Shown here: piece after piece, positions 14,226-19,246 of the stretch
Layout of the letters: each line of letters opens with the position of its first letter
Position numbering within the stretch: the stretch's first letter is position 1
Assembly (NCBI GenBank): GCA_964603785.1
Contig: CAZRWD010000001.1
Span: forward strand, 485,638 to 549,637
Length of the DNA: 64,000 bases
From: an uncultured bacterium
Lineage (GTDB): Bacteria > Fermentibacterota > Fermentibacteria > Fermentibacterales > Fermentibacteraceae
Direction of reading: 5' to 3'
Notes under the pieces: model-generated
Told to the model about the DNA's origin: nothing
What the model saw: the letters and a program-made list of their open reading frames with translations, nothing else
Databases searched by the model: none
Made by a program: the position numbers and the translations under genes

Positions 14226-15542
14226 TTCATGAAGGAGACCGTCATCGAGGCTGCCCGCAGGGGCGAGCCGCATCCCGCGGTCGGTACGATAGCTTCGGCC
14301 GAGGGCCGGAGCGTCCCCGACCTGCTCGCAGGCATCGCGTCGGGAACGGCCGTCGTCCTCGGAGCGGGCGGTGCCGGCAGGAAGGCGCCGTCCGGGGTGG
14401 GCGCCGGCCTGAGGGTCAAGGTCAATGCGAACATCGGGAGTTCGGCCGATCTCGAGTCGGTGGAGGGCGAGCTCGCGAAGATGCGCACCGCCGTGGCCCA
14501 TGGTGCCGACGCGGTGATGGACCTCTCCACGGGTCCGAGATGGCGCGAGATCCTGGGCCGGATCTCCGCGGAGAGCCCTGTCCCTCTCGGAACCGTCCCG
14601 CTCTACCAGGTCTTCGGCGGAGCCCTGGACGCGGGCGGCAGCGCCGGGGACGTCCGGGTGCATGACATGTTCGATGCCGTCGAGATGCACTGCAGGGCGG
14701 GCGTCGATTTCCTCACGCTCCACTGCGGGGTCACGAGGAGGGCCGTGTCCCTCCTTCGGAGCCAGGGCCGCAGGCTCGGCATAGTCTCCCGCGGAGGAGC
14801 CCTGATGGCGGAGTGGATGGAGCTCCACGGCTGCGAGAACCCTTTCTACGAGCGCTTCGGCGATCTCGTCGACATCCTCCACCGGTACGACGCGACCTTC
14901 TCGCTGGGTGACGGGCTGCGCCCCGGATGCCTCGCCGACGCCTCGGACAGGGCCCAGATCGAGGAGCTGCTGACCCTCGGGGAGCTCCAGCAGCGCGCTC
15001 TCGCCGCCGGGGTCCAGGTCATGATCGAAGGTCCGGGCCACGTGCCGATGGATCAGATCGAGCACAACGTCAGGATGCAGAAGAGCCTCTGCAGCGGAGC
15101 GCCCTTCTACGTGCTCGGCCCCATCGTGACGGACATCGCCCCCGGATACGACCACATCACTTCGGCCATCGGAGGGGCCATGGCGGCCTGGCACGGGGCC
15201 GACTTCCTGTGCTACGTGACTCCCGCCGAGCATCTGCGCCTCCCCGATCTGGAGGATGTGAGGGTCGGGACGGTCGCAGCCCGCATAGCGGCGCACGCGG
15301 CGGACATAGCCCGCGGAGCGCCGGGCGCCCGGAAGCCTGACGATGCCATGGCCGATGCGAGGGCGCGCTTCGACTGGGAGGCCCAGTTCGCTCTGGCCGT
15401 CGATCAGGCCAGAGCCTGCGAGGAGCGCAGGCGGGCCATGCCTCTGGACGAGGATGTCTGCTCGATGTGCGGCAAGCTCTGTGCCGTCAAGACAAGCAGG
15501 AGAGCCCTGGAGAGGGACCGGGAGCCGGGGGCGGGAAGCTAG
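14226..15542 (+). CDS. thiC: Phosphomethylpyrimidine synthase ThiC
   Basis: VNANIGSS, GPGHVPMDQIEHN, ...YVLGPIVTDIAPGYDHITSAIGGA and the C-terminal CSMCGKLCA Fe-S motif. Start chosen at MKETVIEAARRG after a GGAGG SD. Confidence 0.93.
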   Translation, partial: FMKETVIEAARRGEPHPAVGTIASAEGRSVPDLLAGIASGTAVVLGAGGAGRKAPSGVGAGLRVKVNANIGSSADLESVEGELAKMRTAVAHGADAVMDLSTGPRWREILGRISAESPVPLGTVPLYQVFGGALDAGGSAGDVRVHDMFDAVEMHCRAGVDFLTLHCGVTRRAVSLLRSQGRRLGIVSRGGALMAEWMELHGCENPFYERFGDLVDILHRYDATFSLGDGLRPGCLADASDRAQIEELLTLGELQQRALAAGVQVMIEGPGHVPMDQIEHNVRMQKSLCSGAPFYVLGPIVTDIAPGYDHITSAIGGAMAAWHGADFLCYVTPAEHLRLPDLEDVRVGTVAARIAAHAADIARGAPGARKPDDAMADARARFDWEAQFALAVDQARACEERRRAMPLDEDVCSMCGKLCAVKTSRRALERDREPGAGS

Positions 15543-18500: not shown

Positions 18501-19246
18501 AGGCCGACTGCGCTCAGGACGCCCTGCTTCGCGCCGCCCAGCCGCCTGGCGGCGAGGCGCGCATCGCCCCCGAGCGCGACGAGCATGAACGGCCGCGGAG
18601 GGAGATAGGGGGGATCGAAGGATGCCAGGCCCGTCCTGACCTGCCTGGAGAGGATGGCAGCCGCCTTCTCCGCCGGAAGGTCGGTGATGCCGAGGGACTG
18701 CGGCAGCCTCACCGATCCTATGTCCAGCGTCTTCGACCACTGCACCTGACCCCCGGCAAGGCAGGTTATGAGCGTCCCGCCGCCTCCGACCTCCATCACC
18801 AGGGCGCTCTTCAGGGATCCCCCGCCGGATCCGCCGACCTTCTCCAGCAGCGCCTGCACTATCAGCCGGCCCTCCTCGAGGGGGTCGATGAGCTCTATCT
18901 CTATGCCCGTGGTCATCATCACCCGGCTGAGGAGGGCGTCCGAGTTCGAGGCCTCCCTGACGGCGCTCGTGGCCACCGCGCGTATGGTCCCGACGCCGTA
19001 GGAGTCGAGCATGCGCCTGAAGTCCCTGAAGGCCGACACGGTGGCGGCTATGGACTCGACGGTCAGGTGCCCCAGCCTGAACGTGTCGTGACCGAGCCTG
19101 ACCGACTTGCTGACCCTCTCCAGGACCCTGACCCCCCCGTCTGCGGCGAACTCGGCGATCTCCATCCGGACGGAGTTCGAGCCGGCGTCTATAACGGCCG
19201 CCAGGCCGGCGGACGCCCCGGGCCTGCAGACCGGGCCGGCGGTCAC
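15539..19246 (-). CDS. Exopolyphosphatase (Ppx/GppA) - polyphosphate kinase 1 (PPK1) single-ORF fusion
   Basis: N-terminal [17 protein letters not shown] (Ppx/GppA actin-like fold) and an HD-type ...[13 protein letters not shown]...VADCLDRQ region. The frame continues without a stop into [49 protein letters not shown] (PPK1 N-domain) and the PPK1 C-domain motif HLSTGNYN. 1235 aa in total. Confidence 0.85.
   Translation of the reverse strand: [1235 protein letters not shown]

What the first reader, a model, noticed from the sequence alone, without database searches (positions are those of the whole stretch)
15539..19246. Ppx/GppA exopolyphosphatase and PPK1 polyphosphate kinase encoded as one 1235-aa polypeptide
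The Ppx N-terminal actin-like and HD regions run without an in-frame stop into a complete PPK1 (ELSWLDF… through HLSTGNYN). This puts polyP-synthesising and polyP-degrading activities on one chain. In E. coli and most bacteria ppk and ppx are separate genes. Either a genuine bifunctional enzyme or an assembly artefact would be notable.
Basis: seen in the sequence. Interest (0 to 1): 0.6.

Follow-up and report, generated by a model that had tools for sequence, protein, structure and literature searches.

The report
Natural Ppx-like/PPK1 fusion protein
A real single gene joins a complete polyphosphate-making enzyme (PPK1) to an altered relative of the polyphosphate-degrading enzyme (Ppx), which more likely assists or tunes PPK1 than simply undoes its work.

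Summary
The 1235-aa ORF at 15539-19246 (minus strand) is real. Its order is Ppx/GppA ASKHA domains, PPX domain III/IV, a ~45-aa linker, then all four PPK1 domains.

It is not an assembly artefact:
- The identical protein was assembled on 13 contigs from separate runs.
- Relatives at 64 % and 58 % identity keep one frame across the junction.
- Both halves show purifying selection.

The fusion is rare. Only three Fermentibacteria-like lineages have it. The nearest unfused relatives carry the same operon (CHAD, HD-only, Ppx, PPK1), with ppx and ppk1 7-53 nt apart or overlapping by 4 nt.

The PPK1 half keeps all 11 functional residues checked. The Ppx half is not canonical. It belongs to a large ppk1-coupled subfamily:
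- The catalytic Glu (DrPPX E143) is Leu in 109 of 115 scorable sequences and never Glu.
- The polyP-binding Arg (R271) is Asp or Glu in 110 of 112.

This group clusters with Lactobacillus Ppx1. The Lacticaseibacillus paracasei Ppx1 is the only member assayed. It shows no detectable hydrolase activity and is required for polyP synthesis.

"Synthesis plus degradation on one chain" is therefore unproven. A PPK1-partner role is more likely. Verdict: new variant of a known kind, of moderate interest as a Rosetta-stone link.

The parts
15539..19246 (-). Whole fusion gene, 1235 aa. GTG start; TAG stop at 15539-15541.
   Evidence: The identical protein occurs on 13 contigs.
18299..19213 (-). Ppx/GppA ASKHA domains I-II (aa 12-316). 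P-loop 1 DAGSNS aa 20-25. The R93 equivalent lies in AVREA aa 95-99. The E121 equivalent lies in PLEEGRL aa 122-128. P-loop 2 is EVGGGGTL aa 152-159 (nt 18770-18793), with Leu at the catalytic-Glu position. The R271 equivalent is Glu, within aa 272-282. RDG replaces REG at aa 308-310.
   Evidence: The model is confident here. Fold match to E. coli PPX has target-normalised TM 0.67.
17717..18241 (-). PPX domains III/IV (HD-like, motif LLHESG; aa 336-510).
   Evidence: Pfam PF21447 and PF01966; alignment to DrPPX.
17567..17716 (-). Linker of about 45-50 aa (aa 511-560). Its conserved core is HLTRQASL (aa 539-546, nt 17609-17632). The remainder is Pro/Gly/Ser-rich.
   Evidence: HLTRQxSL is invariant in all three fusion lineages and there is no conserved internal Met. 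pN/pS is 0.88. pLDDT is below 50 for protein residues ~536-555.
15542..17557 (-). Complete PPK1 (aa 564-1235): N, head, C1 and C2 domains. The H435, H454 and H592 equivalents lie in KTHAK (aa 983-987), AHLSTGNYN (aa 1003-1011) and LEHAR (aa 1140-1144).
   Evidence: Fold match to E. coli PPK has TM 0.84-0.88.
19243..19893 (-). Stand-alone 216-aa homologue of PPX domain III (motif LHDIG). Its stop overlaps the fusion's GTG start (GTGA).
   Evidence: Pfam; DrPPX residues 349-482 at E 1.4e-23. The same gene sits in the same place in L001, L175 and L177.
19832..20875 (-). CHAD-domain protein (CHAD is a polyP-binding module). First gene of the operon.
   Evidence: PF05235, E 6.8e-34. Conserved upstream in L001, L173, L175, L176 and L177. 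CHAD as a polyP binder: abstract of PMC6537752, listed.

Best explanation
SHOWN. This is a genuine, selectively maintained gene fusion. It is the last cistron of a translationally coupled operon: CHAD, HD-only (PPX domain III homologue), then Ppx::PPK1. The C-terminal 670 aa are a complete PPK1 with an intact set of functional residues. The N-terminal 510 aa are a four-domain Ppx/GppA protein from a large subfamily that is encoded directly upstream of ppk1 in every context examined. That subfamily keeps DrPPX D7, N11, R86 and E114. It replaces the catalytic Glu of P-loop 2 (E143) with Leu, and the polyP-contacting Arg (R271) with Asp or Glu. The two modules are joined by a flexible, fast-evolving linker of about 45 aa.

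INFERRED ORIGIN. The fusion arose in one Fermentibacteria-like clade when the stop codon of a ppx-ppk1 pair was lost. Such pairs already overlap by 4 nt in relatives.

INFERRED MECHANISM. PPK1 makes polyP from ATP through its phospho-histidine. The tethered Ppx-like module acts as a partner and not as a simple antagonist. It most likely binds the polyP chain end with Mg2+ through its retained P-loops. In that way it could activate or prime PPK1, or control chain length, possibly with weak or conditional trimming activity. This would occur at a polyP granule organised by the CHAD protein. Fusion fixes a 1:1 ratio and keeps the two modules close together.
For: Reality of the fusion.

PPK1 intact: 11 of 11 E. 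coli functional positions are conserved. TIGR03705 is above its cutoff.

Ppx module non-canonical: it differs at 5 of 7 positions that are invariant in 27 canonical Ppx sequences. Both full-length fusion lineages carry the same substitutions.

The subfamily signature holds across the 120 best stand-alone relatives. L occupies the E143 position in 109 of 115 and is never E. D/E occupies the R271 position in 110 of 112.

Five of five examined relatives lie directly upstream of ppk1, and four of the five follow a CHAD gene. L175 and L177 have the identical operon, unfused.

NJ trees separate ppk1-upstream Ppx from canonical Ppx with bootstrap 174/200, 170/200 and 80/100. The upstream group includes Lactobacillus Ppx1 and the fusions. 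The canonical group includes E. coli PPX, DrPPX and Lactobacillus Ppx2.

Literature: DrPPX E143A lowers kcat/Km 57-fold, R271A 17-fold and K35A 8-fold (PMC11234463 Table 2). Lc. paracasei Ppx1 shows no detectable hydrolase activity, is required for polyP accumulation and enhances Ppk in vitro (bioRxiv 10.1101/2023.12.22.573107). 'Cluster II' Ppx1 proteins have been proposed as Ppk1 activators of unknown mechanism (PMC12248826).

Linker: pLDDT is below 50 only in the linker.
Against: No activity was measured. The module keeps P-loop 1, the R93 and E121 equivalents and D/E136. Its ASKHA domain is under purifying selection (pN/pS 0.43). A pure scaffold would be expected to decay as Lactobacillus Ppx1 has (YMSSYK / SLGSAMIS). 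The site therefore probably still binds or processes a phosphoryl substrate, and hydrolysis by a modified mechanism cannot be excluded.

The fused module sits at the least-degenerate end of the clade. The trees are neighbour-joining on divergent sequences, so long-branch effects are possible, and the grouping of the nearest-relative family with the fusions has only 53/100 support.

The link to the Lacticaseibacillus result rests on clade membership at about 20-25 % identity.

Whether the genome has a separate canonical Ppx is unknown. None is present in this 64-kb window.
Confidence: 0.55

Rival explanations
1. True bifunctional enzyme. The Ppx module is an active exopolyphosphatase that uses a modified catalytic arrangement. 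One chain both makes and degrades polyP, and the net direction is set by ATP/ADP, Pi or an effector.
For: D7, N11, S12, R86, E114 and an acidic residue at 136 are retained. The ASKHA domain is under purifying selection. Domains III/IV, which in E. coli PPX are reported to play a role in processivity (Corrales et al. discussion), are present. Reverse-order PPK1-then-Ppx fusions with fully canonical Ppx motifs exist, so joining both enzymes in one chain is viable.
Against: The E143 equivalent is Leu, the R271 equivalent is Glu and the S141 equivalent is Gly. Alanine substitutions at these sites in DrPPX lower kcat/Km by 57-, 17- and 2.4-fold. All three positions are invariant in 27 canonical sequences. 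The only assayed relative in the clade is inactive. An unregulated fusion would waste ATP in a futile cycle.
Confidence: 0.3
2. The Ppx-like module is a nucleotide-directed (GppA-like) domain. It would bind or hydrolyse (p)ppGpp or another phosphorylated nucleotide and couple PPK1 output to the stringent response, rather than acting on polyP.
For: The Ppx/GppA family includes pppGpp hydrolases. The module matches GppA models weakly (NF008260, 96 bits) and matches GppA structures. Loss of the polyP-contacting Arg, with P-loops retained, would fit a change of substrate. This last point is inference.
Against: No specific GppA determinant was tested. The NF008260 score is far below its cutoff of 624. 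The operon partners (CHAD, PPX domain III homologue, PPK1) all point to polyP.
Confidence: 0.1
3. Artefact or decaying gene. The single ORF would come from an assembly or sequencing error, or from a recent non-functional read-through.
For: ppx and ppk1 are adjacent, overlapping or separated by one in-frame stop in many relatives, so one error could merge them.
Against: There are 13 independent contigs with the identical protein. Four full-length members of the 64 % lineage come from different sources. A third lineage at 58 % identity also spans the junction. [quoted passage not shown]
Confidence: 0.02

Closest known systems
Lactobacillaceae ppx1-ppk-ppx2 cluster; 'Cluster II' Ppx1 (Corrales et al., bioRxiv 10.1101/2023.12.22.573107; review PMC12248826)
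   Same: A four-domain Ppx-like protein is encoded directly upstream of ppk1 and translationally coupled to it. L. amylolyticus ppx1 and ppk overlap by 4 nt. Catalytic positions are altered. It groups with the fused module in NJ trees.
   Different: The proteins are separate there and covalently fused here. Lactobacillus Ppx1 has lost P-loop 1, R93 and P-loop 2 entirely. The fused module keeps P-loop 1 and the R93 and E121 equivalents, and changes only K35, D136, S141, E143 and R271. The published cluster was described within Bacillota only. This organism looks like a member of the FCB group, probably Fermentibacteria.
Unfused CHAD / HD-only / Ppx / PPK1 operons of Planctomycetota-, Anaerolineae-like and unnamed metagenomic genomes (P0267-P0386; loci L173-L177)
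   Same: The Ppx is 44-48 % identical over 96-99 % of its length and carries the same L143 / acidic-271 signature. Two members have the exact EVGGGGTL loop. L175 and L177 have the same gene order, including the HD-only gene.
   Different: Ppx and PPK1 are separate. They are 7-53 nt apart, or overlap by 4 nt (ATGA) in L177. They lack the HLTRQxSL linker.
E. coli ppk-ppx operon and canonical PPX (1U6Z, 2FLO; D. radiodurans 8JGO)
   Same: The same two protein families and the same folds.
   Different: The gene order is ppk then ppx, as two proteins. PPX there has the full catalytic set D7, R86, E114, D136, S141, E143 and R271.
Reverse-order PPK1-then-Ppx fusions (P0133 1224 aa, P0138 1202 aa)
   Same: PPK1 and a Ppx/GppA module lie in a single ORF on long contigs.
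   Different: The order is opposite. The Ppx part is fully canonical (DIGSNS, DxGGGSLE, VREG) and has the Ppx_C domain. The genomic contexts are unrelated and look proteobacterial. These are independent events.

Membership tests
PPK1 (polyphosphate kinase 1) | Four-domain architecture (N, head, C1, C2) and a family-model score above the curated cutoff | tested here: met
   All four Pfam domains are present. TIGR03705 scores 714 bits against 466, and NF003921 scores 735 against 701. Fold TM to 1XDO and 9UUH is 0.84-0.88.
PPK1 (polyphosphate kinase 1) | Autophosphorylated His (E. coli H435), H454, H592 and the ATP/polyP-tunnel residues | tested here: met
   N45, R375, S380, R405, H435, H454, Y468, R564, H592, R621 and Q674 are all conserved in the alignment. 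The roles of these residues are taken from established knowledge of E. coli PPK.
PPK1 (polyphosphate kinase 1) | ATP-dependent polyP synthesis | not testable with these tools
   Requires an enzyme assay.
Canonical exopolyphosphatase (E. coli PPX / DrPPX type) | ASKHA domains I-II plus domains III/IV | tested here: met
   PF02541 at 110 bits and PF21447 at 87 bits. The model matches 1U6Z and 8JGO.
Canonical exopolyphosphatase (E. coli PPX / DrPPX type) | P-loop 1 DxGS[NY]S, with the R93 and E121 equivalents | tested here: met
   DAGSNS; Arg within AVREA (aa 95-99); Glu within PLEEGRL (aa 122-128).
Canonical exopolyphosphatase (E. coli PPX / DrPPX type) | P-loop 2 [DE]xGG[GA]SxE with the terminal catalytic Glu (E150 in E. 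coli, E143 in DrPPX) | tested here: not met
   The loop is EVGGGGTL, so Ser is replaced by Gly and Glu by Leu. No acidic residue lies nearby. Both fusion lineages share this. The Glu is invariant in 27 of 27 canonical sequences.
Canonical exopolyphosphatase (E. coli PPX / DrPPX type) | PolyP-contacting basic residues K35 and R271 (DrPPX numbering) | tested here: not met
   These are Ser and Glu in the fusion. Canonical sequences have K/R in 27 of 27 and R in 25 of 25.
Canonical exopolyphosphatase (E. coli PPX / DrPPX type) | Curated model cutoffs (TIGR03706, NF008108) | tested here: not met
   163 bits against 307, and 95 against 864. These cutoffs are strict. The motif-canonical Lactobacillus Ppx2 scores 285.
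ppk1-coupled Ppx-like subfamily ('Cluster II' Ppx1 in the broad sense) | Encoded directly upstream of ppk1 on the same strand | tested here: met
   It is fused here. Five of five nearest stand-alone relatives lie directly upstream of ppk1. In the trees, 18 of the 19 clade members lie directly upstream of ppk1 or are fused to it. The exception is L009, which is same-strand but distant.
ppk1-coupled Ppx-like subfamily ('Cluster II' Ppx1 in the broad sense) | Substitutions at canonical catalytic or polyP-binding positions | tested here: met
   E143>L and R271>D/E hold across the subfamily. The fusion adds S141>G.
ppk1-coupled Ppx-like subfamily ('Cluster II' Ppx1 in the broad sense) | Phylogenetic grouping with Lactobacillaceae, Clostridia and Negativicutes Ppx1, apart from canonical Ppx | tested here: met
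   NJ bootstrap 174/200, 170/200 and 80/100. Caveat: this is a distance method applied to long branches.
ppk1-coupled Ppx-like subfamily ('Cluster II' Ppx1 in the broad sense) | No exopolyphosphatase activity; stimulates Ppk | not testable with these tools
   Known only for Lc. paracasei Ppx1.

The most novel reading that the evidence does not exclude
The L143/acidic-271 Ppx-like proteins would form a widespread family of dedicated PPK1 cofactors that hold the chain end, prime synthesis or activate the kinase. The homology search returned 3493 matches at E<=1e-5, and the 120 best all carry the signature. Named members come from Planctomycetota, Pirellulales and Anaerolineaceae. The trees also group Eisenbacteria, Clostridia, Negativicutes and Lactobacillaceae ppk1-upstream Ppx proteins, and this Fermentibacteria-like clade, with them. 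These proteins are currently annotated as exopolyphosphatases. The fusion would be direct genomic proof that the two proteins work as one physical unit. If so, polyP-degradation capacity inferred from 'ppx' annotations is systematically wrong for these phyla. The fusion would also offer a ready-made single-chain complex for solving how PPK1 is activated.
Probability: 0.4. Interest if true: 0.7.

Novelty: new variant of a known kind. Interest (0 to 1): 0.5.

Why it matters
How bacterial PPK1 is switched on is an open question. The 2025 review states that the way Ppx1 regulates Ppk1 "remains to be elucidated" (PMC12248826).

A natural covalent fusion is classic Rosetta-stone evidence that the ppk1-upstream Ppx-like protein and PPK1 act as a physical pair. 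It extends that idea from Lactobacillaceae and other Bacillota to distant phyla. It also supplies a 1:1 single-chain construct suitable for biochemistry or cryo-EM.

The analysis gives a simple sequence signature, Leu at the P-loop 2 Glu position and an acidic residue at the R271 position. This signature separates the partner proteins from true exopolyphosphatases. That matters for reading polyP metabolism from genomes, for example in wastewater and anaerobic-digester communities.

Tried and rejected
1. Genome-collection hits that appeared to span the whole query (Megasphaera, Veillonellaceae, Clostridiales, Lachnospiraceae, Methanomassiliicoccales) were taken as possible fusions. ORF analysis showed adjacent genes (ppx-stop-ppk, or ppk then ppx) in all of them. 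Only L001, fetched separately, is fused. The same held for five metagenome loci and for Acetoanaerobium.

2. The 667-aa plus 546-aa members of the P0002 cluster looked like a split at the junction. They come from a CGA>TGA nonsense change inside PPK1.

3. The junction-centred word search returned only short PPK1-N fragments and missed even the known fusions, so it is uninformative.

4. My first Ppx sample came only from ppk1-flanking loci and missed the closest relatives. Before I read E143>L as a peculiarity of the fusion. It is a subfamily trait.

5. The first bootstrap run timed out. The second gave invalid distances and its 0/200 figure is void. The corrected run is.

6. The idea that the conserved neighbouring PFK might be PPi- or polyP-dependent was dropped. 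It scores above the cutoff for the ATP-dependent PFK subfamily (NF002872, 379 bits against 253).

7. No supplementary files were held for the Corrales preprint. Lactobacillus Ppx1 and Ppx2 sequences were taken from plasmid records instead.

8. The afdb50 fold library was unavailable. A pTM of 0.65 alone cannot show whether the two modules pack, and no PAE was returned.

9. Eight literature searches found no description of a natural Ppx/PPK1 fusion. The library does not cover subscription journals.
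Full report
**1. Observation**

The minus strand carries one ORF from GTG at 19246 to TAG at 15539-15541, encoding 1235 aa.

All Pfam hits lie in that single frame:
- Ppx-GppA, aa 36-316
- Ppx-GppA_III/HD, aa 336-469
- PP_kinase_N, aa 564-667
- PP_kinase (head domain), aa 677-854
- PP_kinase_C_1, aa 885-1046
- PP_kinase_C, aa 1055-1214

The E-values range from 1e-24 to 6e-65. NCBIfam places the C-terminal part above the PPK1 cutoffs: TIGR03705 scores 714 bits against 466, and NF003921 scores 735 against 701.

Third-position GC is 0.90 over the whole ORF, and base composition shows no break at the junction. Several long ORFs on other frames and the opposite strand overlap this gene. 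They were not tested, but they overlap a gene with very strong support.

The junction is a linker at aa 511-560, nt 17567-17716.

**2. Not an artefact**

- The identical protein is encoded on 13 contigs assembled independently from different sequencing runs, all with the same neighbours.
- A 1233-aa orthologue at 64 % identity (P0002) has four full-length copies from different sources. It shows the same gene order: divergent PFK, then CHAD, HD-only and the fusion.
- A third lineage, NLP04466.1, is a 612-aa partial protein at 58 % identity labelled Candidatus Fermentibacteria. It also runs across the junction.
- The two full-length lineages differ by only four gap codons, all in frame.
- pN/pS is 0.43 for the ASKHA part, 0.31 for domains III/IV, 0.48 for PPK1 and 0.88 for the linker. 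Synonymous sites are near saturation, so these ratios are only approximate.
- The linker keeps an invariant HLTRQxSL core in all three lineages and has no conserved internal Met. A separately initiated PPK1 is therefore unlikely.

The P0002 cluster contains a 667-aa plus 546-aa split allele. It differs from the intact gene by one C>T change (CGA>TGA) inside PPK1, after the N domain, so the Ppx/PPK1 junction stays fused.

**3. How common it is, and where it came from**

An exhaustive HMMER search of 1.84 billion cluster representatives was run with residues 16-1215. The only protein it found with this domain order was the Fermentibacteria fragment. A full-length fusion with both halves near 40 % identity would have outscored every listed hit. 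More divergent fusions scoring below about 450 bits could have been missed.

Every genome or metagenome locus that seemed to span the whole query proved to hold two genes.

The Ppx half alone has thousands of stand-alone relatives, 3493 at E<=1e-5. The 120 best are all about 520 aa and 44-48 % identical.

All five whose context I examined lie directly upstream of ppk1 on the same strand. They are 7-53 nt away, or overlap by ATGA in L177. Four of the five follow a CHAD gene. L175 and L177 also have the HD-only gene, so they carry the window's operon in unfused form.

In an Eisenbacteria relative, the ppx stop overlaps the ppk1 GTG start (GTGTGA). In Megasphaera and several metagenome loci, the two genes lie in one frame with a single stop between them.

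Unfused Ppx proteins end "...[16 protein letters not shown]". Their PPK1 proteins begin 10-14 residues before NRELSWL. L177 adds a proline-rich Ppx tail. The linker is therefore about the length expected from reading through a Ppx tail, a spacer and the PPK1 N-terminal tail. This origin is an inference.

**4. The PPK1 half**

Eleven E. coli positions are all conserved: N45, R375, S380, R405, H435, H454, Y468, R564, H592, R621 and Q674. The functional roles of these residues are taken from established knowledge of the E. coli enzyme.

The AlphaFold model is confident throughout this half. It superposes on E. coli and other PPK1 structures with target-normalised TM of 0.84-0.88.

**5. The Ppx half**

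The D. radiodurans PPX study names the following residues as conserved, or as polyP or water contacts: D7, N11, S12, H14, K35, R86, E114, D136, S141, E143 and R271.

That study reports these drops in kcat/Km for alanine mutants (PMC11234463):

| Mutant | Fold decrease |
|---|---|
| E143A | 57 |
| D136A | 23 |
| R271A | 17 |
| K35A | 8 |
| S141A | 2.4 |

I compared 27 canonical Ppx sequences, including E. coli PPX, DrPPX and Lactobacillus Ppx2. In them, K/R35, R86, E114, D136, S141, E143 and R271 are invariant.

The fusion reads S35, R86, E114, E136, G141, L143 and E271, and both full-length lineages carry the same substitutions. P-loop 2 is EVGGGGTL with no nearby acidic residue. The alignment here has no gaps.

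These are traits of the whole subfamily, not of the fusion alone. Among the 120 nearest stand-alone relatives:
- The E143 position is Leu in 109 of 115 and never Glu.
- The R271 position is Asp or Glu in 110 of 112.
- Two sequences carry the exact EVGGGGTL loop.

D7, N11, R86 and E114 are retained across the subfamily.

**6. Relationship to Ppx1**

Neighbour-joining trees of the ASKHA region separate two groups. One holds every Ppx that lies upstream of ppk1. The other holds the canonical enzymes. Bootstrap support is 174/200, then 170/200 after adding Lactobacillus Ppx1 and Ppx2, and 80/100 after adding the nearest relatives. The fusions are monophyletic in every replicate.

L. amylolyticus has the ppx1-ppk-ppx2 cluster. 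Its Ppx1 falls in the upstream group and its Ppx2 falls with the canonical enzymes.

Within the upstream group the catalytic motifs decay by degrees:
- Mild in the fusions and the large nearest-relative (Planctomycetota-type) family.
- Intermediate in Clostridia and Negativicutes.
- Complete in Lactobacillus.

The literature is directly relevant:
- Deleting ppx1 in Lc. paracasei abolishes polyP accumulation.
- Purified Ppx1 has no detectable exopolyphosphatase activity and enhances Ppk in vitro.
- A 2025 review defines a "Cluster II" of such Ppx1 proteins in Lactobacillaceae, Clostridia and Negativicutes. It proposes that they activate Ppk1 and says the mechanism is unknown.

My upstream group matches that cluster and extends it beyond Bacillota.

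Caveats: the trees use a distance method on divergent sequences. The grouping of the nearest-relative family with the fusions has only 53/100 support.

**7. Structure**

The AlphaFold2 model covers residues 16-1215 and used a 65-sequence alignment. Mean pLDDT is 91.7 and pTM is 0.65. The only stretch below pLDDT 50 is model residues 521-540, which is protein ~536-555 in the linker.

This fits two folded bodies joined by a flexible tether. No PAE was returned, so it neither shows nor excludes a fixed interface. No solved structure covers both modules.

**8. Mechanism**

Shown:
- An intact PPK1.
- A tethered Ppx-like module with a conserved but altered phosphate-binding site.
- An operon that also encodes a polyP-binding CHAD protein and a stand-alone homologue of PPX domain III.

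Inferred: the module works with PPK1, as chain-end binder, primer, activator or length controller. It may have residual or conditional hydrolysis. It is not a plain antagonist. I put this at about 0.55.

The main rival is true bifunctionality, at about 0.3. The active-site residues are conserved under selection, which argues that some phosphoryl chemistry or binding persists. A GppA-like nucleotide role (about 0.1) and an artefact (about 0.02) follow.

**9. Comparison and novelty**

Both halves belong to known families, and neighbouring operon genes often fuse.

PPK1 and Ppx have been joined more than once. Two reverse-order PPK1-then-Ppx proteins exist on 94- and 134-kb contigs, and their Ppx motifs are fully canonical.

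No paper describing a natural fusion was found in eight searches. The searchable library omits most subscription journals.

I rate this a new variant of a known kind. Its value lies in linking PPK1 physically to a large and mostly uncharacterised Ppx-like subfamily, and in the sequence signature that identifies that subfamily.

The organism was not identified directly. The Fermentibacteria label comes from the 58 % relative. The surrounding genes (MutS, a TonB-dependent receptor, a surface protein with an FlgD-Ig domain) fit a Gram-negative bacterium of the FCB group.

Noticed in passing
window 14104-14194 (+): A TPP riboswitch (RF00059, 68 bits against a gathering score of 54) lies just upstream of thiC. 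The mechanical ORF start at 14118 falls inside the riboswitch, so the real thiC start must be further downstream. It is about 14229 if the product is the 437 aa called in the Logan assembly.
   Followed up: partly
window 15539-15542: The convergent thiC gene (+) and the fusion gene (-) overlap by 4 nt at their 3' ends. There is no room for a terminator between them.
   Followed up: no
window 19243-19893 (-): This stand-alone 216-aa protein is a homologue of PPX domain III only (DrPPX 349-482, E 1.4e-23). It has an LHDIG motif where the fused module has LHESG. It occupies the same operon position in L001, L175 and L177. In L173 a metallophosphoesterase gene sits there instead. Its role is unknown.
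   Followed up: partly
L087 8002-8004 (compare L001 around 10002): In the 64 % sister lineage, at least three assemblies carry a CGA>TGA nonsense allele inside PPK1, after the N domain. It gives 667-aa and 546-aa products alongside intact 1233-aa alleles. This could be a natural loss-of-function polymorphism. It could also yield a Ppx + PPK1-N protein with a restarted remainder.
   Followed up: partly
L088 5001-8609 (P0138) and L089 5001-8675 (P0133): These are reverse-order PPK1-then-Ppx single ORFs of 1202 and 1224 aa on contigs of 134 and 94 kb. Their Ppx motifs are fully canonical and they have a Ppx_C domain. They are better candidates for truly bifunctional enzymes. Each was seen on only one contig.
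   Followed up: partly
proteins P0120, P0082, P0100, P0108, P0083, P0058: Other PPK1 fusions appeared among the top relatives: CYTH-PPK1 (about 1070 aa, three representatives scanned), DUF4956-CYTH-PPK1 (1317 aa), GNAT-PPK1 and periplasmic-binding-protein-PPK1. From memory, eukaryotic VTC polyP polymerases use a triphosphate-tunnel (CYTH-like) catalytic domain, which would make the CYTH and DUF4956 combinations interesting.
   Followed up: no
L005, L006, L007, L091, L092: In Megasphaera, another Veillonellaceae genome and two metagenome loci, the degenerate upstream ppx and ppk1 lie in the same reading frame with a single stop codon between the open frames. One point mutation would create a fusion there as well.
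   Followed up: no
L176 2918-9617: One relative has a denser polyP cluster: PPK2, CHAD, Ppx-like, PPK1, PPK2, all on one strand.
   Followed up: no
window 20987-22138 (+): A phosphofructokinase gene is transcribed divergently from the polyP operon in both fusion lineages (window and L001). It scores as an ordinary ATP-dependent PFK subfamily member (NF002872, 379 bits against 253). The conserved neighbourhood has no obvious special meaning.
   Followed up: yes
window 7208-10993 (+) and 40812-42956 (+): A 1261-aa protein carries lamin-tail and FlgD-Ig-like domains. A separate protein combines CHASE2 with an adenylate/guanylate cyclase domain. Several ORFs of 480-714 aa have no Pfam match (23287-25431, 28507-30045, 33946-35400, 35361-37391).
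   Followed up: no
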